DNA of 64,000 bases. Origin: an uncultured Acidobacteriota bacterium. Lineage in GTDB: Bacteria; Acidobacteriota; Thermoanaerobaculia; Gp7-AA8. This document shows, in pieces, positions 2,449 through 58,636 of the stretch. Under the pieces are notes generated by a model. That model was not told where the DNA came from, did not search any database, and was given only the letters and a program-made list of their open reading frames with translations. Position numbers and translations under genes: made by a program. The stretch covers positions 40,917 through 104,916 of the forward strand of contig CALMZP010000167.1 of the NCBI GenBank assembly GCA_937870635.1, read 5' to 3'. Numbering within the stretch: the first letter of the stretch is position 1; each line of letters opens with the position of its first letter.

Positions 2449-2973
2449 CTACCAGCCCTTCTCTTTTCGAAGCGAAGTGATGTGGGCGACGTGATGGCGG
2501 CCGTGCCACGCGTACATCGCGATGAGCCAATCCACCGTGACCGCGCCGTGCTCAGGGTGCCGGAACGTGCGCTCGAACGCCGCAGCGTCGAGTGATCGGA
2601 GCAGGCGGACCCAACGGTCGTGAACGGACTCGAGGAGCATCAGTGACGTTTCGATCGGGGTATCGCGGCTGTCGGCGAGATCGGCCCACGCTGACTGGTC
2701 GTACGGCTTGATCGTCGGCTCTCGCTCAGTCAGAGCGAGTTTGAGGCGGGTGTATCCATTGAGGTGGCTGTCCGGCACGTGATGAACCACCTGCCGGACC
2801 GTCCAGCCACCTTCCCGATACGGAGTATTCAGCTGCGGCTCGCTGAGTCCCCGCACCGCGTCGCGCATCCTCGCCGGGGCGGCTGCGATCTGTTCGATCA
2901 TCGCGAGCCGCTCGTCTGGATTCAGCTTCGAGCGGCTCTCAAATTTCCCGACGGGGTAGCGCAGGTCTGTCAT
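2449..2973 (-). CDS. DinB_2 / YfiT-like metal-dependent hydrolase family protein
   Basis: MTDLRYPVGKF ... VVHHVPDSHLNGYTRL ... AWHGRHHVAHI, with His motifs typical of the DinB/YfiT fold. ATG at 2973. Confidence 0.65.
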   Translation of the reverse strand: MTDLRYPVGKFESRSKLNPDERLAMIEQIAAAPARMRDAVRGLSEPQLNTPYREGGWTVRQVVHHVPDSHLNGYTRLKLALTEREPTIKPYDQSAWADLADSRDTPIETSLMLLESVHDRWVRLLRSLDAAAFERTFRHPEHGAVTVDWLIAMYAWHGRHHVAHITSLRKEKGW

Positions 2974-2981
2974 TTCGGACC

Positions 2982-3851
2982 CTACGGTTTGACCAGGCCC
3001 TGGTAGGTATCGGGGCGGCGGTCGCGAAAGAATTGCCAGGTGTTTCGAACTTCGCGAATCTTGTCGAGATCGAGCTCTGCCGTGACCAGCGCATCCTTGT
3101 CGCGTGCGGCCATCGCCTCGAACTGACCTCGCGGGTCGCAGAAGTAGCTCTGCCCGTAGAACTCGCCGATGTTCCACGGAGCTTCATATCCGACACGGTT
3201 GATCGCGCCGACGAAGTATCCGTTCGCAACCGCGTGCGCCGGCTGTTCGAGCTTCCACAGATATTCGGACAGCCCCGCAACGGTGGCCGATGGGTTGAAT
3301 ACGATCTCAGCCCCATTGAGGCCGAGCTCGCGCGCACCTTCCGGGAAGTGGCGGTCATAACAGATGTACACGCCGACCCGGGCGTAGCGCGTGTTGAATA
3401 CCGGGTAGCCCAGGTTACCCGGGCGGAAGTAATACTTTTCCCAGAACCCCGGCGCAACGTGGGGGATGTGATTCTTCCGGTATTTGCCGAGGTAGGTGCC
3501 GTCGGCGTCGATGACGGCCGCGGTGTTGTAGTAGACGCCGGTCGCCTCCTCTTCATAGAGGGGAACGACGATGACCATGCTGTAGCGCTTCGCATAGTCC
3601 TGCATGAGTTTCGTCGTCGGCCCATCGGGGATGCGCTCGACGGATTCGTACCAGCGCGGATTCTGTTCCGCACAGAAGTAGGGGCCGGTGAAGATCTCCT
3701 GCATGCAGAGGAGCTGGACGCCGGCCCTACCGGCCTCGTCAACGTACTTCAGCGTGCGCTCGATCTGAGCCTCACGGATTTTCTCGAGTGGCTCGTCGAC
3801 GCTCGCGGCGAGCGAGGTCTGAATGAGGCCGGCTTTCACGATTCGGGACAT
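2982..3851 (-). CDS. Beta-ureidopropionase / N-carbamoyl-beta-alanine amidohydrolase (carbon-nitrogen hydrolase superfamily)
   Basis: Nitrilase-superfamily fold with the catalytic Cys in VGVYICYDRHFPE, which resembles the ICYGRHHP motif of beta-ureidopropionases. Genomic context is the pyrimidine catabolic gene set. Confidence 0.8.
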   Translation of the reverse strand: MSRIVKAGLIQTSLAASVDEPLEKIREAQIERTLKYVDEAGRAGVQLLCMQEIFTGPYFCAEQNPRWYESVERIPDGPTTKLMQDYAKRYSMVIVVPLYEEEATGVYYNTAAVIDADGTYLGKYRKNHIPHVAPGFWEKYYFRPGNLGYPVFNTRYARVGVYICYDRHFPEGARELGLNGAEIVFNPSATVAGLSEYLWKLEQPAHAVANGYFVGAINRVGYEAPWNIGEFYGQSYFCDPRGQFEAMAARDKDALVTAELDLDKIREVRNTWQFFRDRRPDTYQGLVKP

Positions 3852-3991
3852 GGATTCTCCTTGGATGGGATGGGGGGACATTATCTGTCAAGTGCTGTCA
3901 TCTCGGAGTGCGGCAGCAAGCCGCACTCCATGACGCAAGTATTTGTATCTGTAACCTAACTTCCTACGACGCCGCTCGTAGTTACTCAGGA

Positions 3992-5011
3992 ATGACATTG
4001 CCAGGGTCGGTCCCGGCCGGGACTCGGGTCGGCCGTTACGAAATCGTGTCGCTCCTCGGACGCGGCGGTATGGGCGAGGTCTACAGCGCCACCGATTCGA
4101 ATCTCGGCCGGCAGGTCGCGCTGAAGATTCTTCCCAGCCACCGCACCTCCGATCTCGATCGCGTGGCGCGCTTCGTCCGGGAAGCACGAGCCTCCTCGGC
4201 GCTCAACCATCCTTCGATCGTCGCCGTTCACGACGCCGGATCCGAGGGAGATGTGCACTACCTGGCGATGGAGCTGATCGACGGCGAACCGTTGAGCATC
4301 TGGATGAAGAAGTCGCGTGGTCTGTCGCGAATCATCGAGCTGATGGCGCAGGTCGCCGAAGGCCTCGCTCGCGCGCACGCTCATGGAATCGTTCATCGCG
4401 ATCTCAAGCCGGACAACTCATCCATCTCGATTCGCCGCTGGACGAGATTCCCGAAAAGGTCGGCGGATTATCCGGCCTCGCCAGACGACTTCGAATGGAT
4501 CTCACTGGTGACCGCAAATCACGGGGTCACGACGGGCACGACGAGCGGCGAACGAGCGGCCGCGTACGGCGCGGCGATCCGCACGCAGCTCGGCGCAAAG
4601 AACGGGTTCCCGGTGTTCAGTCCATACAATCCGGACTGGGCGCCGAAGTATCATACGAACTTCCTATCCGCGTACGCGGTACTCGGCACCTATGTCAATC
4701 TCCTTTACGAGAACGTCGATTATCCGCTCGAGCAGACGGGCTGGGTGTTCGCGCACGAGATGGGCCACGTTTTCTGGGCGTGTGACGAGTATCAGGCCCA
4801 GTGCCAGCGGTTCATGGATCCGCCATGTTCGAACTGCTATGGCACCTTCAGCGGCGATCCTGAAGCCGCCGAGAACGGGCCCGGTCCGCGAGAGGCCTCC
4901 ATGAACTGGAATTGTGAATTGTGCACGCCGAACGGACCGGATGCATGCTTGATGCATGCAACCACGTCAAGCAACTGGAGCAACCGTAGTACGTGCATAC
5001 CCGGCGAATGA
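3992..5011 (+). pseudogene. Chimeric ORF made of a Ser/Thr protein kinase N-lobe (truncated immediately after HRDLKPDN) fused in-frame to a lower-GC Cys-rich segment with an HEXXH zinc-metalloprotease motif (HEMGH)
   Basis: The kinase subdomains are present (GRGGMGEVY, VALK, HRDLKPDN) but the DFG/APE half is missing. From about 4435 the GC content drops and the sequence reads FAHEMGHVFWACDEYQAQCQ... The kinase C-terminal remnants appear separately at 5765-6092. Confidence 0.55.
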
Positions 5012-5039
5012 TCGGATGGCCGGAATAGTGGAGGAGCAA

Positions 5040-5759
5040 ATGCGAACCACTCTTGCCCTCCTCGCCGTACTCATCGCCGTCCCGCTCTTCGGACAGGGTG
5101 TTCCTCCGAGCGAGCGAATCCTGGTGCCAATCTTTGCCCAGCCAGGTCCCGGTGCATTCGGCTCCTTCTGGCAATCGGAACTCTGGGACCACAACGATAC
5201 CGATGAGCCAGTCCAGACTGGCTTAGGTCCAGTCTTACCGCCGAAGACCACGATCGGACCGCTGGTCGGGGACCGGGCCGTCGGCACGCCAGGGTTAGTC
5301 ATGTTCACGCGTCGAGAACACGAGGCGCACCTCCATTTCAGTGTCCGGATTCGGGATTTATCACGCCAGGCGCAGACATGGGGTACAGAGATTCCGGTGG
5401 TACGCGAGTCAGAGTTCTTTACCGGCAGAATGCAGCTCCTCGCCGTCCCCACAGACGGCCGTTTTCGTACGATGCTCCGCGTTTACGAGTTCCTCGGATT
5501 TGGCCTGTCGCCGGGGGCGGTGCGGGTCCGCTTCTACAGGACCGGCGTCTCGCCAGACGTCCTTCTGCACGAGCAGACAGTCTCACTGGCAGGCACGGGC
5601 GTCCTCGCATACGCGCAGCTCGCCTCATTGCCGCCTGAGGTATCTGATGCAGCACCAGTTCGCATCGAGATCGAGCCGCTCAAAGAGATGTGGTTCTGGG
5701 CGTTCGTCAGTATCACCAACAACCAAACCCAGCACGTCACGATCATCACGCCCCAGTAG
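5040..5759 (+). CDS. Secreted hypothetical protein (signal peptide MRTTLALLAVLIAVPLFGQG)
   Basis: Good RBS (ggaggag) followed by an ATG at 5040. The GC content is lower than in the flanks. No recognisable domain. Confidence 0.55.
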   Translation: MRTTLALLAVLIAVPLFGQGVPPSERILVPIFAQPGPGAFGSFWQSELWDHNDTDEPVQTGLGPVLPPKTTIGPLVGDRAVGTPGLVMFTRREHEAHLHFSVRIRDLSRQAQTWGTEIPVVRESEFFTGRMQLLAVPTDGRFRTMLRVYEFLGFGLSPGAVRVRFYRTGVSPDVLLHEQTVSLAGTGVLAYAQLASLPPEVSDAAPVRIEIEPLKEMWFWAFVSITNNQTQHVTIITPQ

Positions 5760-5764
5760 AGCCG

Positions 5765-6092
5765 CCGTCAGGCTTCGGCCCTCACAGCCCGCAGGAGAAG
5801 TCAGCGCGGATGGGGTTCTCGCCCGACCGTAACTATCTCTACTACTCGTCTGCTCTCCGCAGCGAGCCGAACATCTTCCACGTCTTCCAGATGCCGCTGC
5901 TCGGTGGCAGGCCTCGCCGGGTCGCGACCGACACCGAGTCGTGGTTCTCGTTGTCGCCCGACGGAGCGTCGATCGTGTTTGCGTGCCAGCGGTGTGATCT
6001 TTTCGTACGACGTCTCCAGCGACGGGCGAACGCTCGTGATGGCGCGCGGCGAGCCAACCAGCGACGCGGTGCTGATCAGCAACTGGCGCTAG
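5765..6092 (+). pseudogene. Frameshifted remnant of the TolB/PD40 beta-propeller C-terminus of the disrupted Ser/Thr kinase
   Basis: Two frames translate to PD40-like blades: FSPDRNYLYYSS...SLSPDGASIVFA (frame 2) and GVIFSYDVSSDGRTLVMARGEPTSDAVLISNWR (frame 3). There is no start codon, and the fragment shares the reading frame of the 3992 kinase N-lobe. Confidence 0.5.
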
Positions 6093-6448
6093 GTTGCGGT
6101 TTTCGTCGCCGGGAGATCGCGTGAAACGCGCAGCAGCATCAGCGTCTTGCCGATCGTGAACTCGTCCCCGGTGCGAAGTTCCACGGGCGACGTGATGCGG
6201 ACCGTGCCCAGGTAAGAGCCGTTCTTGCTGCCGAGATCTTCGAGGGTGACGCGGTCGCCGTCGACGATGATCCGCGCATGATGGCGTGATACTTCGGGAG
6301 CGTTGATGCAGATGGTGTCGTTCGGATCGCGGCCGATCGGGTTCACGCCCTGGCGGAGAAAGATCCCCTCGCGCCCGACGATCACCACGAACTGCGCGGT
6401 GACGTCGGCCACGCCCGTGGCGTCGAAGGCGTAGCCGAATCGGTGCAC
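6089..6448 (-). CDS. FHA (forkhead-associated) domain protein
   Basis: IGRDPNDTICINAPEVSRHHARIIVDGDRVTLEDLGSKNGSYL, a canonical FHA core. Confidence 0.7.
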   Translation of the reverse strand: MHRFGYAFDATGVADVTAQFVVIVGREGIFLRQGVNPIGRDPNDTICINAPEVSRHHARIIVDGDRVTLEDLGSKNGSYLGTVRITSPVELRTGDEFTIGKTLMLLRVSRDLPATKTAT

Positions 6449-6711
6449 GGTGCGGATGATGGCGTGATCCTCGTCGCCCAGGGCCTGTCGAATCTCGGAG
6501 ACGAGATTGTGGAGGTTGCCCTGCTCGACGATGGTATCGGGCCAGAGCAGTTCACCGTCATCCTCTCGGCGCTTCCAGGCCTTCGGCCGGCGATCACCAG
6601 GAGGCGAAACGCCTCGCCCTTCCTGTTGTCGTCGTCACACCGTCGGCCGTGATCGCAGCGATGCCGGACGGCACGGCTCGCACGATGATCGCAGGACCGC
6701 ACTGGTGGCGC

Positions 6712-8097
<1,386 letters not shown>

Positions 8098-8115
8098 GCT
8101 CACTCTCCGTAAGCG

Positions 8116-9084
8116 GTGACTATAACGCCGGTTCTGTCAGACAATGCGCCGCGCATGTCCGTGATCCTTCCCGAATATCACCCGGTGGGCCAGCTGCCCG
8201 CGCAGGACATCCTCGCCCTCGTGACGTTCGGCGGTCCGGTGATCCGTACGGACGTGCTCAGCTTCAACGTGCCGATCCCCCAGATCGGAGACCCCGTCGC
8301 GGAGGTGTGGCGGACGAAGGGCAAAGTCCTGCGTGAGACGCGTGGCGGAATCGAGATTGCGCGTACGGATGACGTCCTGTTCGGTACGGTCCGGGCCACG
8401 GGCCGCTCCGATGAAGCCACATTCGACATTTACGACTCGCTGGTCGAGGTTTGCCGCGGATCGGGCTACCCGAATCTCTGGCGGATGTGGAATCACGTCG
8501 GCGGAATCAACGAGGATGAAGAATGCCTCGAGCGCTACAAGCGGTTCTCATCCGGCCGTCATGAGGCGCTGACCGCTCATGGATATTCGAAAGACCGTTT
8601 TCCGGCAGCGAGCGCCGTAGGTATGAGCGAGCCGGGACTGCTCGTGTACTTCATCGCCGGACGCCAGGAGGGCGTGCAGGCGGAGAATCCCCGCCAGGTC
8701 AGCGCATACGACTATCCGCCGCAATACGGGCCGCGAAGTCCGTCGTTCTCGCGCGCGACCGTCGTCCACGGCGGCCTGATTTTCGTTTCCGGCACGGCGA
8801 GCGTCGTCGGCCATGAGACGAAGCACAGCGGCGATGCGGCCCGCCAGCTGGAGGAGACGATCGAAAATCTCGACGTCACCCTCTCCTCGGCGGCTGCGCG
8901 TGTGGGGCGCACTGCGTCGGCGCGCGACCTCACGACCACGAAGATCTATCTCCGTGCAGGGGTCGACCATCGCGAGCTCGAGCCGCGCCTTCGAGAGGTC
9001 TTCCGGTCGAGGATGGTCCTCCAGTCGGACATCTGCCGCCGCGAGCTCCTCCTGGAGATCGAGGGCGTCGCCGCGATCGCCTAG
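8116..9084 (+). CDS. Hypothetical protein with a C-terminal RidA/YjgF-like domain; possibly FkbO/Hyg5-type chorismatase family
   Basis: The C-terminal ATVVHGGLIFVSGTASVVGHETKHSGDAARQLEETIENL resembles RidA. A roughly 320-aa length with an N-terminal extension is typical of FkbO/Hyg5 chorismatases. Start is uncertain: GTG at 8116 or ATG at 8155. Confidence 0.45.
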   Translation: MTITPVLSDNAPRMSVILPEYHPVGQLPAQDILALVTFGGPVIRTDVLSFNVPIPQIGDPVAEVWRTKGKVLRETRGGIEIARTDDVLFGTVRATGRSDEATFDIYDSLVEVCRGSGYPNLWRMWNHVGGINEDEECLERYKRFSSGRHEALTAHGYSKDRFPAASAVGMSEPGLLVYFIAGRQEGVQAENPRQVSAYDYPPQYGPRSPSFSRATVVHGGLIFVSGTASVVGHETKHSGDAARQLEETIENLDVTLSSAAARVGRTASARDLTTTKIYLRAGVDHRELEPRLREVFRSRMVLQSDICRRELLLEIEGVAAIA

Positions 9085-9437
9085 CGATCCCGCTGCGGGC
9101 GGTTGCGCGCCGCGATCTGGCCCGCCGCGGTGAGTGAAAGAGAGAGAGGTTGCCCTGCTTTCAGCGGCTGAAACGCTCTCCATTCACGATCCTGCCCCTG
9201 CCATCGGTAGGTCAGGACGAGATGCTCGCTGGGCGGGACCGACAGCGCGCGCGATTCGCCGTTGCGCAGCGTCCCGATCTGCACCGGTCCGCCAGCCGTC
9301 GCGAGAACCGCGTTCTCCATCGGCGCTCCCGACTGGTTCATCAGTGTGACCCGCGCGGGAATCCTTCCGGCGTCCCACGTGACGTAAAGCAGGCCGGCTA
9401 CGCCGGCCGCGAGGAACCACAGCGCCTTCTTTGGCAA
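9081..9437 (-). CDS. Small membrane-anchored hypothetical protein (probable TTG start)
   Basis: High GC3 codon bias. N-terminal hydrophobic helix PKKALWFLAAGVAGLLYV followed by a soluble domain. It fills the 355-bp gap between convergent genes. Confidence 0.4.
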   Translation of the reverse strand: MPKKALWFLAAGVAGLLYVTWDAGRIPARVTLMNQSGAPMENAVLATAGGPVQIGTLRNGESRALSVPPSEHLVLTYRWQGQDREWRAFQPLKAGQPLSLSLTAAGQIAARNRPQRDR

Positions 9438-9439
9438 GG

Positions 9440-10744
9440 TCAGACCGTTGCGAACGCGGCGTCGAGAGCCGAGACCAGCTCGTCGATGTCCGCCTTCGAC
9501 GCGATGAGCGGAGGACCAAGCCGGATCACATTGCCGAACAGACCACCCTTGCCGATGAGCACACCACGCCGGCGTGTCTCCTCGAACACCTTGAGCACGG
9601 CCTTCGGATGGGGTTCCTTCGTCTTGCGGTCCACGACGCACTCGATCGCCTGCATGAGACCCATGCCGCGCACGTCCCCGATCACGGGGTATTTTTCCTT
9701 CAGAAGCTCGAGCCGCTCGCGAAGATAGCCGCCGACCACCGCGGCGTTGCGCGGAAGCTCGTGCTCTTCCATATAGCGGATCGTGGCCACGGCCGCGGCG
9801 GAGGTCACGGGATTGCCGCCGAACGTTGAGAAGGTGAGCATGGGAAACGCCTTCGAGATCTCATCGGTCGTGATCGTCGCGCCGATGGGGGAGCCGTTGG
9901 CCATTCCCTTCGCGAACGTCATGACGTCGGGCTCGACGTCCCAGTGCTCGATTCCGCACCACTTGTCGCCCGTCCGTCCCCATCCGGTCTGCACCTCATC
10001 CGCGATGAAGATCCCGCCGTAGCGACTGATGATGTCCTTGACCAGGCCGAAGTACTCCTTCGGGGGGACGATGAAGCCGCCGACTCCGAGGATCGGCTCC
10101 GCGATGAAGCCCGCAATCTTGCCGCTCGTCGTCGTCTGAATCACCTCTTCGACGTCCTGCGCGCATTTGACGCCGCAGTCGGGATACGACTGGCCGAACG
10201 GGCAGCGGTAACAGTACGGCGCGATGGCGTGATGGATGCCGGGGACCGCCGTGCCGCCGAGGCGCCAGGTCGAGTGTCCTGCGGCGCTCATGGCGAGCAT
10301 CGTGCGGCCGTGATACGCGTGGCGCAGCGCGATGATCTCCTGGCGCCCGGTGTAGAGCCGCGCCAGAAGGATGGCTGTCTCGTCAGCTTCCGATCCGCTG
10401 TTCGTGAAGAACGTCCGGCTCAGATCGCCGGGTGTCACTTCGGCGACCTTCGCGGCGAGCTCCGCCGCCGGCTTGTTGATGTAGAGGGTCGACGTGTGGG
10501 TGACCTTGTCGACCTGCTCGTGAATGGCGCGGTTGACCGCCGGGTTGGCGTGTCCGATCGATACGGTGAGGACCCCGCCGAAGCAATCGAGGTAACGATT
10601 GCCCTGCTCGTCCCACACGTGCATCCCTTCGCCGCGCTCGATGACGAGCGGCGTCTCGTAGTACGTCGCCGCGGCCGGCCAGGCGTGCCGCTTGTACTGC
10701 GCGGTCACGTCCGATTTCGTTTTCGGGTCGAGTACGTCGGTCAT
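9440..10744 (-). CDS. Class-III (omega) aminotransferase, probable beta-alanine:pyruvate transaminase
   Basis: PLP fold-type I class III motifs (FIAEPILGVGGFIVPP, DEVQTGWGRTG, MTFAKGMANG with the PLP lysine). ATG at 10744 with a ggag RBS. Confidence 0.85.
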   Translation of the reverse strand: MTDVLDPKTKSDVTAQYKRHAWPAAATYYETPLVIERGEGMHVWDEQGNRYLDCFGGVLTVSIGHANPAVNRAIHEQVDKVTHTSTLYINKPAAELAAKVAEVTPGDLSRTFFTNSGSEADETAILLARLYTGRQEIIALRHAYHGRTMLAMSAAGHSTWRLGGTAVPGIHHAIAPYCYRCPFGQSYPDCGVKCAQDVEEVIQTTTSGKIAGFIAEPILGVGGFIVPPKEYFGLVKDIISRYGGIFIADEVQTGWGRTGDKWCGIEHWDVEPDVMTFAKGMANGSPIGATITTDEISKAFPMLTFSTFGGNPVTSAAAVATIRYMEEHELPRNAAVVGGYLRERLELLKEKYPVIGDVRGMGLMQAIECVVDRKTKEPHPKAVLKVFEETRRRGVLIGKGGLFGNVIRLGPPLIASKADIDELVSALDAAFATV

Positions 10745-10762
10745 GATTTCTCCAATTTCGCC

Positions 10763-11908
10763 TCAGCGACGCTCGGTCGAAGCGAGCGGAGCCTCGGGCT
10801 TCGCGTATCCCTCGTGCTCTTCTTCGTAGCCGCCATGGTATCCGGCCTGGTCGGGACGCTTGATCTGCGAGTGCGGGACGATGCGCTCCCGGCGCAATCC
10901 GCGGAAGTCGGCCAGGCTCTTCCATCCGCGTGAAGCGTTCTTCTCGAGGAATGCCGTCATGCCCGCGAGCAGCTCCCTGATCACGTTCGGACCGACCGCG
11001 TGGTCGAGCATGGCCGCGGTGCAGACCTGCGCGGTGCCACAGCCGAGGAGGAAGTAGCTGAGAGCGTGATCGAACGTCGAGATGCCGCCGATGCCCGAGA
11101 ACTCCTTGTCGGGGAAGGCTTTCGTCAGCTGCGCCATCTTCGCCAGCGACAGCGGCAGGATGGCCGGGCCTCCCAGCCCGCCGGGCGATACCTGTCCTTC
11201 GACATTCATTTCGAACTCGAGGGTCTCAGGATCGATGAGAGGCAGCGACGGAAAGGTGTTCGTCGACGAAACGGCATCGGCGCCGCCGCGGAAACATGCT
11301 TCCGCCTCGACGACGATATTGGCCGTGGCCGGAGTCAGCTTGACCCACACCGGAATCCGGGCCACTTCCTTGACGGCCTGCGTCACGACCGAGCAGAGGA
11401 CCTTGTCCTTGCCGACGTTCGAGCCCATGTCTACGCGGTCCATGTGGGGACAAGAGAAATTGAGCTCGACCGCGTCGCAGCCCTCGTCCTGCATGGCCTT
11501 CGTCAGGAGCTGCCAGTTATGCAGTTCCTTGTCGTTTCCCGAGCCGGCCATGATCGATGCGACGAGGACCTTGTTCGGGTAAGCCTTCTTGATCTTCGCA
11601 AGTTTGCCGATCCACCAGTCCAGCGGTTTGTCCGAGATCAGCTCCCAGTTCCACGACGCCATGAGAGTGGTGTCGGGGCGGCGGTTCATCGACAGACGTG
11701 TCTGGCCGTTGTCCGCGCGAAGGAACTTGGTCTTCGGACCTTTCACGTTGGTGACGGGGTGAAGGCCGATGGTCTTGCAGACCACACCGCCCCAGCCCGC
11801 GTCGAACGCCCGCATGATGTTCGCGTCCGACTCCGTGGGCGGCGCCGAAGCGAGCAGAAACGGATTGTCGAATCGAATCCCTGTGAACACCGTCGACAAA
11901 TCGGCCAT
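10763..11908 (-). CDS. Dihydropyrimidine dehydrogenase PydA/PreA-like subunit (DHOD-like TIM-barrel domain only)
   Basis: FMN/dihydroorotate-dehydrogenase-like barrel (GIGGISTFDHALSYFLLGCGTAQVCTA; SCPHMDRVDMGS). It lacks a C-terminal 2x[4Fe-4S] ferredoxin domain. ATG at 11908 with a ggagga RBS. Confidence 0.75.
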   Translation of the reverse strand: MADLSTVFTGIRFDNPFLLASAPPTESDANIMRAFDAGWGGVVCKTIGLHPVTNVKGPKTKFLRADNGQTRLSMNRRPDTTLMASWNWELISDKPLDWWIGKLAKIKKAYPNKVLVASIMAGSGNDKELHNWQLLTKAMQDEGCDAVELNFSCPHMDRVDMGSNVGKDKVLCSVVTQAVKEVARIPVWVKLTPATANIVVEAEACFRGGADAVSSTNTFPSLPLIDPETLEFEMNVEGQVSPGGLGGPAILPLSLAKMAQLTKAFPDKEFSGIGGISTFDHALSYFLLGCGTAQVCTAAMLDHAVGPNVIRELLAGMTAFLEKNASRGWKSLADFRGLRRERIVPHSQIKRPDQAGYHGGYEEEHEGYAKPEAPLASTERR

Positions 11909-12074
11909 CGGAAGTCCTCCGTCAGTGGGAAACAATGACTATACCGCTGATCACCCGGGGGACGGGAATGGTGAATGCTGAGTGGTGAGTGTTGAATGGT
12001 GAACCCAGGGGATGAAAGCGTTCCGCTTCACCACTGACCATTCACCATTCCACATTCACCATTCCCGTCTCTTC

Positions 12075-13565
12075 TTAGCTCTCCGCGGGACTGGCTTGCC
12101 GGTTAACCCCCATCATCAGCAGGTACACCACAAAGCTGAGCCCGAACGTCACAAACCAGGCGTGTGTATAGAGGTGGTCGAAGAGGGTCGGTTCGGCAAC
12201 GACGCCGCCTGGCGTCACCGCGGCACGCAGGAAACCGGGGACGACCGGCGCCACGGAGGCGACGAGCGCGATCACCGCTTTCCAGTTCGTGCCGTTGCTG
12301 TAGGTGTATTCGCCTTTGAGCTCGAAGAGGTCGCGGAGGTTCAGCTTCTGCCGGCGTACGACCCAGTAGTCAGCGATGAGGATGCCGCCCAGCGCGCCCA
12401 TCAGGCTCGAGTATCCGATGAGCCACGTGAAGATGTACGCAGCCGCGTCGGAGTAGAGCTTCCACGGCATCATGGCAATGCCGATGACGGCGGTAATCAG
12501 GCCGCCAGTCACATACGAGATGCGCCGGGGGCTGAGATTGGAGAAGTCGTTGGCCGGCGAAACGACGTTCGCAGCCATGTTCGTCGTGATCTGTGCCGCG
12601 AGAACGACGAGCGCACCGAAGATGATCACGATTGGCGAACCGATCATCGTGATGAGCTCCACCGGGTCCCACACGGCGCGGCCGAAGACGAGAATGGTGG
12701 CGCTGGTCACGGCGACACCGATGAACGCGAACAGGGTCATCGTGGTGGGAAGGCCGAGCGCCTGGCCGAGCATTTGTGAGCGCTGGTTCTTTGCGTAGCG
12801 CGTGAAGTCGGGGATGTTCAACGACAGCGTCGCCCAGTAGCCGACGTTCGCGGTCAGCGCGGCGGGAAAGAGCGCCCAGAAATCCGTATCTCTGCCGGCC
12901 TGGAGGCGGGAAGACTCGGCGAGGATCCGGCCAAGGCCGCCGCCGCTTCGGATCGCCCAGAAGAGCAGCGCCAGCCCGCCCAGCAGAAGAAGGGGCGCGG
13001 CCCAGCTCTCGAGCATTTTGATCCCTTCGGTGCCGCGCAGGATGATCACGACCTGAATCGCCCAGAAGATCATGAAGGACACCGCGGTCGCGTACGGCAT
13101 TGCCGCCCAGCCTGGCCACATGGCCGTGAGAAGCGCGTTGAGGGCAATGCCCCCGATCCAGGTCTGAATGCCGAACCATCCGCAGGCCACGATCGCGCGA
13201 AGCACCGCCGGCACGTTCGCACCGCGCACGCCGAAGCTGGCGCGGCAGAGCACGGGAAACGAGATGCCGTACTTCGTCCCCGCGTGAGCATTGAGCACCA
13301 TTGGTACGAGCACGATGATGTTGCCGAGGAGGATGGTGATGAGGGCCTGGGACCAGCTCATGCCCTGGGACATCAGCCCTGAGGCCAGCGTGTACGTCGT
13401 GATGACGACCGACATCCCGATCCACAGCGCGGCGATGTTGTACGTCGTCCAGGTGCGGCGCGCCGCCGGTGTCGGCGCCAGGTCGGGATTCCAGAGCGGG
13501 CTGTGCGAGACGTCCGCATCCAGCTCCACGAAGTCGCGTTGCGGCGGGGCCGGGCTCGTCGTCAT
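12075..13565 (-). CDS. NCS1 family nucleobase:cation symporter (uracil/cytosine/allantoin permease-like)
   Basis: 12-TM NCS1 topology and conserved segments (e.g. GISFPVLCRASFG, IQTWIGGIAL). ATG at 13565 with a ggagga RBS. Confidence 0.9.
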   Translation of the reverse strand: MTTSPAPPQRDFVELDADVSHSPLWNPDLAPTPAARRTWTTYNIAALWIGMSVVITTYTLASGLMSQGMSWSQALITILLGNIIVLVPMVLNAHAGTKYGISFPVLCRASFGVRGANVPAVLRAIVACGWFGIQTWIGGIALNALLTAMWPGWAAMPYATAVSFMIFWAIQVVIILRGTEGIKMLESWAAPLLLLGGLALLFWAIRSGGGLGRILAESSRLQAGRDTDFWALFPAALTANVGYWATLSLNIPDFTRYAKNQRSQMLGQALGLPTTMTLFAFIGVAVTSATILVFGRAVWDPVELITMIGSPIVIIFGALVVLAAQITTNMAANVVSPANDFSNLSPRRISYVTGGLITAVIGIAMMPWKLYSDAAAYIFTWLIGYSSLMGALGGILIADYWVVRRQKLNLRDLFELKGEYTYSNGTNWKAVIALVASVAPVVPGFLRAAVTPGGVVAEPTLFDHLYTHAWFVTFGLSFVVYLLMMGVNRQASPAES

Positions 13566-53843: not shown

Positions 53844-56315
<2,472 letters not shown>

Positions 56316-56410
56316 TTTTCCTCCGAGCTGGGATGAGAGTTTTTTGTTCGAGTGCCGCATCCGGAGCAGGCCAGAGGCTGGGCTCACGCAAAAGGCCGGC
56401 GGATTCTAGC

Positions 56411-56526
56411 AGAGAGGGAGGGTCACGTCTGCACTTGGCACTTTCTCCACGAACGGTAGATCGGCGAAGTCGTGGGGAATCTACCGCTCGTGGAGAAAGT
56501 GCCAAGTGCAGACGTGACCCTCCTCC
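56411..56526. repeat. Long near-perfect hairpin (about 45-bp arms, 20-nt loop) in the divergent promoter region between the two PPase genes
   Basis: gagggagggtcacgtctgcacttggcactttctccacgaacggtagat / cggcgaagtcgtggggaatc / taccgctcgtggagaaagtgccaagtgcagacgtgaccctcctccc (one mismatch). Confidence 0.85.
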
Positions 56527-56566
56527 CAGTATCATGCGCGGCCAACCACCCCTGAGGAGACGACCG

Positions 56567-58636
56567 ATGTCGAACTCGATCTATCTGATTCCGCTGGCCG
56601 GGGTCCTCGCCCTGATCTTTGCCCTGGTCAGGAGTTCCTGGATCAGCAGGCAGGACGCCGGGACGCCCGAGATGAAAGTCATCGCCGGCCACATCCGCGA
56701 AGGGGCGATGGCATTCCTCACCCGCGAATATCGCGTCCTGGCGGTATTCGTCGTCGTGGTCTCGGTCCTCCTCGCCTGGGCGAACGCCGCGCGCGCCGAA
56801 AGCTCCTGGCTGATCGGCGTCTCCGTGGCCACCGGCGCGTTCTGCTCGGCCCTGGCCGGCTGGTTCGGAATGAGCGTGGCGACGCATGCAAACGTGCGCA
56901 CGGCGGCAGCCGCGCGGACCAGCATGAACGGCGCGCTGCGCCTCGCATTCGCCGGCGGCGCCGTGATGGGCTTTGCCGTCGTCGGCCTCGGACTACTCGG
57001 ACTGTCGCTTCTGTACATCCTCTACGAGCGCTTGTTCGCCTCCGCCGATCCGCAGGCGACGATGATCCGCAACATCAACGTGCTCTCCGGCTTCTCGTTC
57101 GGGGCGAGCTCCATCGCGCTCTTCGCGAGAGTCGGCGGCGGCATTTACACGAAGGCGGCCGACGTCGGCGCTGACCTCGTCGGCAAGCTCGAGGCGGGAA
57201 TCCCCGAAGACGATCCACGCAACCCGGCCGTCATCGCAGACAACGTCGGCGACAACGTCGGCGACGTCGCCGGCATGGGCGCCGATCTCTTCGAGTCCTA
57301 CGTCGGCTCCATCGTCGGCACCCTCGTCCTCGGCATGGTGGCGACGCAGGTTGGCGGTTCCAGCTATACACCGATGCTCGTGCTCTTTCCGCTCGTGCTC
57401 GCGGCGGTCGGCATCGTGCTCTCGCTCGTGGGTACGACTCTGGTCCGGATGAAAGAGGACGGTGATCCCGGCCGGGCGCTGCAGGCGGGCCCGATCGTCG
57501 CCGCCGTTCTGACTCTCATCGCCATCTGGTTCATCGCGCAGCGCATGCTGCCGGGGACCTACCTGCTCGAAGGGAGAGAGTTCAACGCCACGGGCGTCTT
57601 TTTCGCTACCGTCGCCGGACTCGTCGCCGGCGTCCTGATCGGACTGATCACCGAGTACTACACGTCCGAGGCGCGTGGTCCGGCGCGCGGGATCGCGCGG
57701 GACTCGCTGACGGGCGCGGCGACGAACATCATCAGCGGGCTGGCGGTAGGCATGAGGTCGACCGCGCTTCCGATCGTCGTCCTCGTCGTGGCGATCATCG
57801 TCTCGTATCGCCAGGCGGGCCTGTACGGGATCGCGATCGCCGCGCTGGGCATGTTGCTCACCACGGGAATCCAGCTCGCGGTCGATGCCTACGGCCCGAT
57901 CGCAGACAACGCCGGCGGCATCGCGGAGATGAGCCATCTCGGCAAGGAAGTGCGGGCACGGACGGACAAGCTCGACGCCGTCGGTAACACGACCGCCGCG
58001 ATCGGGAAAGGGTTCGCGATCGGGTCAGCGGCACTCACTGCGCTGGCGCTCTTCGCGGCCTTCAAGGCGACCGTCGGTCTGAAAGTGATCGACCTCAGCG
58101 ACCCCGATGTCATGGGAGGCCTCTTCCTTGGCGGCATGATGCCGTTCCTCTTCTCGGCGATGTCCATGAAGGCGGTGGGACGCGCGGCGTTCAAGATGAT
58201 CGAAGAGGTACGCCGCCAGTTCAAGGAAATACCCGGACTGATGGAGGGGACAGGGAAGGCCGACTACGCGCGTTGCGTCGACATCTCCACGCAGGCCGCG
58301 ATCAAGGAGATGGTCATCCCGGGATTGCTCGCCGTCGTCGCTCCGGTCGTGGTTGGCCTGTACAGCGTTCCTGCGCTCGGCGGTCTGCTGGCGGGCGTCA
58401 CTGTGACGGGCGTGCTGATGGCGATCTTCATGGCCAACGCCGGCGGCGCCTGGGACAACGCGAAGAAGCACATCGAGGCGGGAGCGCACGGCGGGAAGGG
58501 CTCCGATGCTCATCGTGCCGCGGTGGTCGGTGACACGGTCGGCGATCCGTTCAAGGACACATCCGGACCGAGCCTGAACATCCTCATCAAGCTGATGTCG
58601 GTGGTGGCGCTGATCGTGGCGCCGCTGCTGATTTAG
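56567..58636 (+). CDS. hppA: Membrane-bound pyrophosphatase, K+-dependent subfamily (Ala in [10 protein letters not shown])
   Basis: [24 protein letters not shown] and [21 protein letters not shown] motifs. GGAGA RBS followed by an ATG at 56567. Confidence 0.9.

What the first reader, a model, noticed from the sequence alone, without database searches (positions are those of the whole stretch)
3992..6092. Eukaryotic-type Ser/Thr kinase gene destroyed by a lower-GC insertion, leaving a chimeric ORF (kinase N-lobe plus HEXXH fragment) and frameshifted PD40 remnants
Seen in sequence:
- A normal kinase N-lobe ends abruptly at HRDLKPDN (about 4434).
- The ORF continues in-frame into a roughly 58%-GC segment encoding a Cys-rich peptide with HEMGH, then a separate secreted-protein gene (5040-5759).
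- At 5765-6092, recognisable PD40/TolB propeller blades of the original kinase C-terminus appear in two frames with no start.
- The kinase C-lobe, the TM segment and most of the propeller are missing.
- An FHA-domain gene, a typical kinase partner, lies immediately downstream on the opposite strand.

Inference: this is an insertion-plus-deletion event that pseudogenised the kinase. The inserted DNA has no transposase, so its origin is unclear.
Basis: partly seen in the sequence, partly recalled or inferred. Interest (0 to 1): 0.55.

Follow-up and report, generated by a model that had tools for sequence, protein, structure and literature searches.

The report
Decaying kinase locus holding foreign fragment
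A membrane sensor kinase gene and its neighbouring partner genes in a soil Acidobacteriota (Thermoanaerobaculia-like) chromosome have been broken up by at least four separate deletions, with a piece of an unrelated secreted-protease cassette filling one of the gaps; this is ordinary gene decay, not a new fusion protein.

Summary
An intact syntenic ortholog (L090) has this order: CN-hydrolase, an 866-aa kinase with a PD40 propeller, a wHTH-FHA regulator, a small JAB ORF, dihydropyrimidinase.

Mapped against it, the window keeps:
- kinase codons 1-142 (3992-4417);
- about codons 232-250, read out of frame (4418-4472);
- codons 383-438 (5819-5985);
- codons 833-866 (5988-6092).

The break after HRDLKPDN is a 268-nt internal deletion between ACAACRTCAT repeats. 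It is not the insertion junction.

The foreign DNA spans about 4473-5762. It holds the last 40% of a 458-aa secreted metzincin-fold protease gene, itself frameshifted, plus an intact downstream gene for a beta-sandwich secreted protein. It has no terminal repeats and no target duplication. Its GC content (60.5%) is not unusual for the window.

The FHA gene has also lost its 5' end, in a deletion of about 470 bp that also cut the JAB ORF.

Seven assemblies from different sequencing runs show the same structure, so this is not a misassembly. A relative (L009) has degraded the same kinase independently. No kinase-HEXXH fusion family exists in the database searched. The finding is of low interest.

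The parts
3992..4417 (+). Kinase remnant A: codons 1-142 of the ancestral 866-aa Hanks-type kinase (Gly-rich loop, VALK, HRDLKPDN), still in frame.
   Evidence: Pkinase profile 1-128/263, E 1.2e-23. 88% identical to the partial ortholog P0004 and 76% to the intact syntenic ortholog in L090.
4417..4418 (+). Deletion junction 1. 268 nt are missing (codons 143-231 plus 1 nt), taking out the DFG motif, the activation loop, APE and most of the C-lobe, and shifting the frame.
   Evidence: Nucleotide alignment to L170 and L090. The orthologs carry ACAAC(A/G)TCAT at both end points; the window reads GACAAC|TCATCC.
4418..4472 (+). Kinase remnant B: codons about 232-250 (LIHLDSPLDEIPEKV...), read out of frame inside the chimeric ORF as SSISIRRWTRFPKRS...
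   Evidence: tblastn with P0004 residues 232-257, E 7e-5 within the 2.4-kb region. 30 of 34 nt identical to L170 over 4418-4451.
4473..5028 (+). 3' fragment of a secreted metzincin-fold metalloprotease gene (residues about 273-458 of a 458-aa protein). It keeps HEMGHVFWACD and the C-L-M-H turn. It lacks the signal peptide, the pro-domain and the first part of the catalytic domain. A 4-nt deletion near 4997 gives a premature TGA at 5009-5011; the ancestral stop is TAG at 5026-5028.
3992..5011 (+). Chimeric ORF (339 codons from ATG 3992; the public gene call P0001 starts two codons downstream at 337 aa) made of remnant A, out-of-frame remnant B and the protease fragment.
   Evidence: ORF list. 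Gene call P0001 on Logan contig L001, 100% identical to 3717-5322.
5040..5759 (+). Intact gene for a 239-aa signal-peptide beta-sandwich protein, the usual downstream partner of the protease gene. A GGAGGAG ribosome-binding site lies at 5030-5036.
   Evidence: 46% identical to the gene downstream of the HEXXH gene in L002. The same gene order is seen in L173 and in P0002's contig. 97 homologs, many of them named by their sources as from Thermoanaerobaculia MAGs. It carries all 7 invariant residues of a 68-sequence alignment. AF2 pLDDT 91.9.
5763..5818 (+). Unassigned 56 nt between the end of cassette homology and the first clear propeller homology. The right junction lies in here.
   Evidence: Homology to L002, L171 and L172 stops at the stop codon, 5759-5762. 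Homology to L090 resumes at 5819 for protein and 5830 for nucleotides.
5819..5985 (+). Kinase remnant C: codons 383 to about 438 (one PD40 blade region).
   Evidence: tblastn with the L090 kinase: 61% identity, E 8e-21. PF07676 E 4.8e-6.
5988..6092 (+). Kinase remnant D: codons 833-866 and the original stop codon, in a different frame from remnant C. About 395 codons are deleted between C and D.
   Evidence: tblastn with the L090 kinase: 51% identity, E 7e-7, ending at the stop. Junction at 5980-5989; L090 has TCCGGCG at both end points, in different codon phases.
6089..6568 (-). Remnant of the wHTH-FHA regulator: codons 65-221 of 221. The only possible start is GTG 6448, with no Shine-Dalgarno sequence, giving an FHA-only ORF of 119 aa.
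   Evidence: tblastn with the L090 221-aa protein (Trans_reg_C + FHA): 55% identity, E 1e-49. In-frame stop at 6637-6635 and no start codon before 6448.
6550..6675 (+). Remnant of a small JAB-domain ORF: codons 79-120 of 125, with no start codon. Together with the previous part it marks a deletion of about 470 bp that removed both 5' ends and the divergent intergenic region.
   Evidence: tblastn with the L090 125-aa ORF: 62% identity, E 2e-13. Prok-JAB E 8.7e-8 for the L090 protein. Coordinates of the missing L090 segment, 10695-11166, are derived.

Best explanation
Window 3992-6675 is what remains of a three-gene signalling block that is intact in a relative. The block comprises a transmembrane Hanks-type Ser/Thr kinase with a PD40 beta-propeller, a wHTH-FHA transcription regulator convergent with it, and a small JAB ORF. 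It lies between two conserved pyrimidine-catabolism genes.

**What happened in this lineage**
1. A 268-nt deletion inside the catalytic domain, between short direct repeats.
2. Loss of about codons 251-382, now occupied by a 1.29-kb fragment of an unrelated two-gene cassette (the 3' 40% of a secreted metzincin-type protease gene plus its intact downstream beta-sandwich gene).
3. A deletion of about 1.2 kb inside the propeller.
4. A deletion of about 470 bp that took the 5' ends and the shared promoter region of the FHA regulator and the JAB ORF.

The foreign fragment most likely arrived by illegitimate recombination, probably as a longer piece that was later trimmed by the same deletion process. 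Its donor was most likely another member of the same class.

The long 'kinase-HEXXH' ORF is a by-product. The frameshift after codon 142 happens to meet no stop for 18 codons and then to be in phase with the protease fragment.

**Shown:** the map of remnants, the missing segments, the intact ortholog, and the fixation of this structure in the population.

**Inferred:** the mechanism of each lesion, their order, and the non-function of the chimeric ORF.
For: - **Intact syntenic ortholog.** L090 carries CN_hydrolase, the 866-aa kinase, wHTH-FHA, the JAB ORF and dihydropyrimidinase. P0008, a partial ortholog 75% identical over the N-lobe in tblastn (80% in the table), is also intact into the propeller and also lies next to the CN-hydrolase.
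- **Remnant map** by tblastn and with P0004.
- **Junctions at base level**.
- **The protease fragment is incomplete.** It covers only residues about 273-458 of P0220, which has a signal peptide, an I9-like pro-domain and a metzincin fold. It has its own 4-nt deletion.
- **The cassette order 'protease then partner' recurs** in L002, L173 and P0002's contig.
- **No mobile-element signature:** no terminal inverted repeats and no target duplication.
- **Not an assembly artefact:** contigs from seven sequencing runs are 99.93-100% identical without gaps over 3150-13185.
- **Independent decay in a relative.** L009 has reduced the same kinase to codons 1-104 plus 504-611 and lost the FHA gene.
- **Relaxed constraint on the remnant.** Non-synonymous divergence of the N-lobe is about 2.5-fold higher on the window branch.
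Against: - The kinase N-lobe is still an open 142-codon frame.
- The partner gene is fully intact and keeps every conserved residue of its family. Part of the region may therefore still be expressed and useful.
- The order of the events cannot be recovered. A single complex rearrangement cannot be formally excluded.
- The right junction is only bracketed (5763-5818). The closest ortholog with DNA for the C-terminal half is only 51-61% identical there.
- The ancestral state is inferred from one full-length syntenic locus (L090) plus partial orthologs.
- The donor of the cassette is not identified. The nearest sequences are about 70% identical in nucleotides.
Confidence: 0.88

Rival explanations
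1. One reading: one event inserted lower-GC DNA at about 4435-5760 and at the same time deleted the C-lobe, the transmembrane segment and most of the propeller.
For: Foreign DNA does sit between kinase pieces, and the middle of the kinase is missing.
Against: - Kinase-derived sequence continues for 55 nt beyond the break at 4417, in another frame. The break at HRDLKPDN is therefore an internal 268-nt deletion and not the insert edge.
- Cassette homology begins only at 4473.
- A separate deletion lies inside the propeller at about 5985, and another in the FHA/JAB genes.
- GC content is not distinctive.
Confidence: 0.06
2. Promoter capture. The beta-sandwich partner gene (5040-5759) is alive and is now transcribed from the former kinase promoter. 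The open chimeric ORF acts as a translated leader that ends 29 nt before the partner's start codon and so prevents transcriptional polarity.
For: - The partner gene is full length with a signal peptide, an RBS and all invariant family residues.
- The upstream ORF is open from the kinase start to 5011.
- No sigma-70-like promoter was found inside the block.
- In L171 a partner homolog also survives after loss of its protease gene.
Against: - By my estimate, an open ORF would arise by chance in about 1 case in 5: one in three for phase, times no stop in 18 GC-rich codons.
- All three strain polymorphisms in the partner are non-synonymous, which fits relaxed constraint at least as well as function.
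- There are no expression data.
Confidence: 0.2
3. A genuine new fusion protein: the kinase N-lobe joined to a zinc-peptidase module forms a functional enzyme or regulator.
For: One uninterrupted ORF, called as a gene in public assemblies (P0001). HEMGH and the conserved cysteines are retained.
Against: - Among the proteins returned by the two database searches, none but this strain's own shows this architecture.
- The linker is out-of-frame kinase sequence.
- The kinase lacks the DFG motif, the activation loop and the C-lobe.
- The peptidase part lacks 59% of the protein, including the first strands and helix of the catalytic domain and the signal peptide. It has also lost the conserved C-terminal HTRRxxGWP through a frameshift.
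Confidence: 0.03
4. Assembly chimera: the junctions are artefacts of metagenome assembly.
For: The region comes from metagenome-type data, and the cassette is unrelated to its flanks.
Against: Logan contigs from SRR33230350, SRR28285651, SRR28401819, SRR33230365, SRR33230348, SRR33230283 and SRR28401868 span the junctions with 0-4 mismatches and no gaps.
Confidence: 0.01

Closest known systems
Bacterial Hanks-type (eukaryotic-like) Ser/Thr kinases with an extracellular beta-propeller sensor, e.g. M. tuberculosis PknD (NHL propeller) and the kinase-TM-PD40/TolB-like proteins common in Acidobacteriota (from my own knowledge of these families)
   Same: The ancestral gene, seen intact in L090, has the same layout: an N-terminal cytoplasmic kinase domain, one transmembrane segment and a C-terminal PD40 propeller, 866 aa in all.
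   Different: Only about 30% of the gene survives here, in four pieces and three reading frames. The catalytic domain lacks everything between HRDLKPDN and helix H. It is a pseudogene, not a working member.
The PknH/EmbR pair of Mycobacterium tuberculosis: a Ser/Thr kinase with an FHA-containing winged-helix transcription regulator as substrate (PMC8636726, PMC9239209)
   Same: In the intact locus the kinase is paired with a Trans_reg_C + FHA protein encoded next to it. This is the same logic of kinase, phospho-threonine reader and DNA-binding output.
   Different: The regulator here has no BTAD domain (my recollection of EmbR's architecture; not checked in the papers). In the window it has lost its first 64 codons, and with them most of the DNA-binding domain. 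Phosphorylation was not tested.
Independent deletion polymorphisms at the pknH locus (RD900) in the M. tuberculosis complex (PMC7785237)
   Same: A sensor-kinase locus is hit repeatedly and independently by deletions in related lineages. Here the window and L009 carry different deletions of the same kinase.
   Different: According to the paper's abstract, RD900 loss leaves a single pknH gene. Here the deletions are between repeats of only 7-10 bp, the gene is destroyed, and foreign DNA is included.
Deletional decay of bacterial pseudogenes (general principle of deletional bias; my own knowledge)
   Same: Several independent deletions of 0.27-1.2 kb, small frameshifts, loss of promoters and neighbouring partner genes, and no mobile element.
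   Different: One gap holds imported coding DNA whose second gene is still intact.
Metzincin metalloproteases with pro-domains (fragilysin, adamalysin/ADAM, ulilysin, mirolysin)
   Different: There is no Pfam or NCBIfam model and no sequence match to the PDB. Trp replaces the usual Gly after the second His. The C-terminal part is Cys-rich. In the window only the C-terminal 40% is present.

Membership tests
Hanks-type Ser/Thr protein kinase (Pfam PF00069), functional member | N-lobe motifs: Gly-rich loop, VAxK lysine, and the HRDxKxxN catalytic loop | tested here: met
   GRGGMGEV, VALK and HRDLKPDN are present. Pkinase profile 1-128, E 1.2e-23.
Hanks-type Ser/Thr protein kinase (Pfam PF00069), functional member | Complete catalytic domain: DFG, activation loop, APE/SPE, and C-lobe helices F-I | tested here: not met
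   The profile match stops at position 128 of 263. 268 nt equal to codons 143-231 are absent, and the remainder is out of frame.
PD40/TolB-like beta-propeller sensor domain | A full set of propeller blades in one reading frame after a transmembrane segment | tested here: not met
   Only codons 383-438 and 833-866 of the 866-aa ortholog remain, in two frames, with no transmembrane segment.
Insertion by a mobile element (IS, transposon or integron cassette) | A transposase or integrase gene, terminal inverted repeats and a target-site duplication at the edges of the foreign block | tested here: not met
   No repeats above chance level flank 4473-5762. The block holds only the protease fragment and the partner gene. 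Pfam gave the eight ORFs scanned (all of at least 620 aa) metabolic, transport or peptidase domains, none of them a transposase or integrase; the other ORFs of the window were not scanned.
Horizontally acquired island recognised by composition | GC content or codon usage clearly outside the host range | tested here: not met
   60.5% against 63.2 +/- 2.0% (8th percentile). GC3 is 0.71-0.74 against 0.79 +/- 0.05. The flanking core genes are 60.6-60.9% GC.
Conserved kinase-HEXXH fusion family | The same domain order in orthologs from other organisms | tested here: not met
   The search with the HEXXH part returned only this strain's own protein plus two stand-alone HEXXH proteins. In the best 150 of 1352 profile hits the domain is never the C-terminal part of a protein of P0001's length (337 aa). 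The five of these hits that were scanned against Pfam and gave any match carry only surface-type domains (BACON, Ig-like, Calx-beta, FG-GAP, InlB B-repeat). The remaining hits were not inspected.
Metzincin zinc metalloprotease | HEXXHXXGXXH/D zinc site, Met-turn, and a catalytic domain with a five-stranded sheet and three helices | tested here: inconclusive
- The motif HEMGHVFWACD and C-L-M-H are present in the window.
- The window lacks residues 1-272, which include strand 192-203, helix 220-243 and strand 248-255 of the domain.
- Catalysis was not tested.
EmbR-like wHTH-FHA regulator | A complete OmpR/PhoB-type winged-helix domain together with an FHA domain | tested here: not met
   The FHA domain is present (E 9.9e-20). 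Codons 1-64, which hold most of Trans_reg_C, are missing, and no start codon precedes GTG 6448.

The most novel reading that the evidence does not exclude
The intact beta-sandwich gene (5040-5759) may be a live passenger whose expression was captured by the dead kinase's promoter, with the chimeric ORF kept open as a translated leader. More broadly, it may belong, together with the metzincin-fold protease, to an uncharacterised secreted two-gene system. Neither family has a Pfam model: the protease family has more than 1300 cluster representatives, and the partner family has 97 homologs, many of them named by their sources as from Thermoanaerobaculia MAGs.
Probability: 0.2. Interest if true: 0.35.

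Novelty: new member of a known kind. Interest (0 to 1): 0.17.

Why it matters
This matters mainly for annotation. Public gene calls list the 337-aa chimera as a protein kinase and the 119-aa ORF as an FHA protein, but both are remnants. The locus is a clean worked example of how a bacterial signalling module is dismantled. It shows several short-repeat deletions, loss of the kinase, its FHA regulator and their promoter, and independent decay of the same gene in a related lineage, while the flanking metabolic genes stay intact. It also brings to light two unannotated secreted-protein families, a metzincin-fold protease with an I9-like pro-domain and its beta-sandwich partner. These may deserve a family description, but nothing here changes current understanding of kinases or of gene transfer.

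Tried and rejected
1. **Genome-contig scan with the kinase N-lobe**. They served only to place the PD40 remnants roughly.
2. **P0004, the closest partial ortholog (88-89%).** No DNA is on record for it, so the left junction was refined with L170 and L173 instead.
3. **Local origin of the cassette.** In L172 a partner homolog lies next to an FHA gene and a PD40 gene. However, the FHA is only 46% identical, and the PD40 protein is a distant paralog with a different C-terminus. Rejected.
4. **An apparent extension of the wHTH homology to about 6614.** This comes from a near-palindromic stretch: EAKRL on one strand reads EAFRL on the other, so the extension overlaps the solid JAB match. Rejected in favour of the deletion model.
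5. **An apparent repeat element interrupting the L170 kinase near the same codon as the window's junction.** It turned out to be Illumina adapter at the contig end.
6. **Terminal repeats or target duplications around the block:** none found.
7. **Promoter scan:** no sigma-70-like site. The terminator-like hits lie inside coding remnants and are not informative.
9. **Pfam and NCBIfam on the cassette proteins:** only sub-threshold hits around the zinc motif.
Full report
**1. What is in the sequence**

ORF 3908-5011 has its likely start at ATG 3992. It opens with a protein-kinase N-lobe that matches Pkinase profile positions 1-128 of 263 (E 1.2e-23). It then continues into a Cys-rich peptide containing HEMGH. 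A 239-aa signal-peptide gene follows at 5040-5759. PD40-like pieces lie in two frames between 5765 and 6092 (PF07676, E 4.8e-6). An FHA-domain ORF (6089-6448) lies on the other strand. The flanks are a CN-hydrolase gene (2982-3881, minus strand) and a dihydropyrimidinase-type amidohydrolase gene (6712-8103, minus strand).

**2. It is not a misassembly**

- The chimeric protein is on record from a Logan assembly (P0001). Its contig, L001, is 100% identical to window 3717-5322.
- A look-up of the exact FHA protein found 18 contigs.
- The six contigs retrieved come from six further sequencing runs. They align to the window over 3.4-10 kb at 99.93-99.97% identity without a single gap, and they span every junction discussed below.
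- The structure is therefore fixed in a population sampled many times.

**3. The ancestral state**

The best kinase matches are named by their sources as Thermoanaerobaculia (Acidobacteriota).

- *Partial orthologs.* P0004 (88% identical over the N-lobe) and P0008 (75%) continue after HRDLKPDN with a normal IMISREGYAKIVDFG... sequence. They then show a complete C-lobe, a transmembrane segment and the start of a PD40 propeller. P0008's upstream read-through is the antisense of the CN-hydrolase 5' end, so it sits in the same place.
- *Full locus.* A metagenome scan restricted to the ortholog-specific C-lobe region returned L090 (JGI contig Ga0307505_10001213). Its gene order is:
  - CN-hydrolase;
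  - an 866-aa kinase with transmembrane segment and PD40 propeller;
  - a convergent 221-aa protein with Trans_reg_C plus FHA domains;
  - a 125-aa Prok-JAB ORF;
  - dihydropyrimidinase.

I take this as the ancestral organisation.

**4. Map of the remnants (unless stated)**

| Ancestral element | Window coordinates | Note |
|---|---|---|
| Kinase codons 1-142 | 3992-4417 | in frame |
| Kinase codons about 232-250 | 4418-4472 | out of frame; LIHLDSPLDEIPEKV against P0004 IIHLDPPLDEIPERV, E 7e-5; 30 of 34 nt identical to L170 |
| Kinase codons 383-438 | 5819-5985 | 61% identity, E 8e-21 |
| Kinase codons 833-866 plus stop | 5988-6092 | different frame, E 7e-7 |
| wHTH-FHA codons 65-221 | 6568-6125, minus strand | E 1e-49 |
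| JAB ORF codons 79-120 | 6550-6675 | E 2e-13 |

About 30% of the kinase gene survives, in four pieces.

**5. The lesions**

- *(a) At 4417|4418.* The window lacks 268 nt. In L170 and L090 both end points carry ACAAC(A/G)TCAT (GACAACATCATG... and CACAACGTCATC...). The window reads GACAAC|TCATCC. This is a deletion between short direct repeats, either imprecise or followed by a 1-nt loss. It removes the DFG motif, the activation loop and most of the C-lobe, and it shifts the frame. It is not the edge of the insert.
- *(b) Between codon about 250 and codon about 383.* Here the kinase sequence is replaced by foreign DNA (section 6).
- *(c) At 5980-5989.* About 395 codons of the propeller are missing. 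In L090 the two end points share TCCGGCG in different codon phases, which would explain the frame change. Using L090 as a stand-in for the ancestor is an inference.
- *(d) The equivalent of L090 10695-11166 (about 470 bp) is missing.* This segment held the first 64 codons of the wHTH-FHA gene, the divergent intergenic region, and the first 78 codons of the JAB ORF.
  - In the FHA frame there is a stop at 6637-6635 and no ATG, GTG or TTG until GTG 6448.
  - GTG 6448 lies inside the last strand of the winged helix and has no Shine-Dalgarno sequence.
  - The 'typical kinase partner' is therefore a remnant too.

**6. The foreign block**

- *First search.* The HEXXH part found only two stand-alone proteins of about 240 aa, P0002 (60% identical) and P0003 (48%). 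Each is followed by a gene of about 240-250 aa.
- *Collinearity.* L002 is collinear with window 4487-5762, and its HEXXH ORF runs off the contig edge.
- *Wider family.* A profile search of 1.84 billion cluster representatives found 1352 relatives at E <= 0.001. The domain usually sits at residues about 180-430 of secreted multi-domain proteins.
- *Closest relative.* P0220 is a complete 458-aa protein with a signal peptide. Its contig, L173, aligns to window 4473-5031 at 70.4% nucleotide identity, and it also carries the partner gene downstream.
- *Left edge.* The foreign block therefore starts at about 4473. This corresponds to P0220 residue about 273, so 59% of the protease gene is absent.
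- *Frameshift at the 3' end.*
  - A 4-nt deletion near 4997 replaces the conserved C-terminus HTRRxxGWP with a premature TGA at 5009-5011.
  - In the ancestral frame, TRRMIGWPE and TAG 5026-5028 are still readable.
  - These are followed by GGAGGAG and by the partner's ATG at 5040.
- *Right edge.* Homology to L002, L171 and L172 stops at the partner's stop codon, 5759-5762. The stretch 5763-5818 is unassigned.
- *No mobile-element or composition signal.*
  - No inverted or direct repeats above chance level flank the block.
  - GC content is 60.5% against 63.2 +/- 2.0% for windows of equal size. That is the 8th percentile and the same as the conserved flanking genes.
  - GC3 is only about 1-2 sd low.

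**7. What the cassette encodes**

- *Protease.*
  - There is no Pfam, NCBIfam or PDB sequence match.
  - The motif HEMGHVFWACD has the HEXXHXXXXXD spacing, and a C-[IL]-M-H turn follows. The reading of the motif is my inference.
- *Partner.*
  - It has 97 homologs, many of them named by their sources as from Thermoanaerobaculia MAGs, and no Pfam domain.
  - It keeps all invariant residues of a 68-sequence alignment.
  - It models with high confidence (pLDDT 91.9) as an all-beta protein of beta-sandwich type.
  - Its function is unknown.
- *Likely donor.* The partner family's many Thermoanaerobaculia members and the unremarkable composition of the block both point to a donor within the same class.

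**8. The chimeric ORF**

After the frameshift at 4417, 18 codons of out-of-frame kinase sequence contain no stop. The cassette fragment then happens to be in phase. I estimate the chance of this at about 1 in 5 (one in three for phase, times about 0.6 for no stop in GC-rich sequence). Neither half can be functional:
- the kinase half lacks the DFG motif and the C-lobe;
- the protease half lacks its signal peptide, its pro-domain and the first strand-helix-strand of its catalytic domain.

Among the proteins returned by the database searches, no other shows this architecture.

**9. Age and parallel decay**

Nei-Gojobori estimates on the 142-codon N-lobe give dN of 0.18 from the window to L170 or L090, against 0.10 between those two intact genes. 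This is about 0.13 on the window branch against about 0.05 on the others. Constraint has therefore been relaxed for part of that branch. dS is near saturation, so the estimate is rough.

A second relative, L009, is about 80% identical in nucleotides in the flanking genes. It has reduced the same kinase to codons 1-104 and 504-611, has lost the FHA gene entirely, and keeps JAB codons 53-120. These break points are different, so the decay was independent.

**10. Comparison with what is known**

- The ancestral module works like the PknH/EmbR type of pair: a sensor Ser/Thr kinase plus an FHA-bearing winged-helix regulator (PMC8636726, PMC9239209).
- Repeated independent deletions at a kinase locus are known from pknH/RD900 in the M. 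tuberculosis complex (PMC7785237).
- Dismantling by multiple deletions is standard bacterial pseudogene decay (my own knowledge).

Nothing here requires a new mechanism.

**Verdict**

The finding is real and is now resolved to base level. It is an ordinary pseudogene cluster containing an imported gene fragment. The only open point of mild interest is whether the intact partner gene is still in use, expressed from the old kinase promoter. Related to that is what the unannotated metzincin and beta-sandwich cassette does.

Noticed in passing
window 5188, 5237, 5724: Among the six near-identical strain contigs, 3 of the 4 variable sites in 10 kb fall in the 720-bp partner gene, and all three are non-synonymous (D50V, L66F, Q229E). 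None falls in the surrounding dead sequence of about 1.9 kb. This could be relaxed constraint, diversifying selection on a secreted protein, or a conversion tract.
   Followed up: partly
L009 10001-10879: A relative from a different metagenome has independently degraded the same kinase to codons 1-104 plus 504-611. It has lost the FHA gene and keeps part of the JAB ORF, between the same two flanking genes.
   Followed up: yes
L171 7900-8726 and 3988-6352: A 60%-identical partner gene is preceded only by the last 12 codons of the metzincin gene (CEHTRRQVGWQN). These are joined to sequence that in L173 lies upstream of the complete gene, so the protease was lost independently while the partner was kept. 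A second partner paralog on the same contig follows a Peptidase_S8 gene.
   Followed up: partly
L170 about 1035-1094 (C-terminus of P0011): The last 19 residues of this public protein (RSEERRVGKECRSRWSPYH) are translated Illumina adapter (AGATCGGAAGAGCGTCGTGTAGGGAAAGAGTGT) at the contig end. This is an artefact in the protein collection (I recognised the adapter from memory).
   Followed up: partly
P0220 / L173 875-2251, and 1352 relatives: A large family of secreted proteins has no Pfam or NCBIfam model. It combines an I9-like pro-domain with a Cys-rich metzincin-fold domain and is often followed by BACON, Ig-like, Calx-beta or FG-GAP domains.
   Followed up: partly
L172 7022-7675: The partner homolog in a Thermoanaerobaculia MAG (GCA_035525015.1) is itself split by a frameshift near 7520 and is called as a 151-aa gene. 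It lies next to a non-orthologous FHA gene and PD40 gene.
   Followed up: yes
window 53844-56387 (-) and 56333-58636 (+): Two divergently oriented H+-translocating pyrophosphatase genes lie side by side (H_PPase E 2e-184 and 7.5e-279).
   Followed up: no
window 2449-3177 (-) compared with L009 5815-8892: Between the response-regulator gene and the CN-hydrolase, the window and L090 carry a DinB-like ORF of about 175 aa (label from my reading of the ORF translations; not scanned against Pfam), whereas L009 carries an acetyltransferase, a 67-aa ORF and an alkyl-sulfatase-type gene. The neighbourhood upstream of the kinase is therefore also variable.
   Followed up: no
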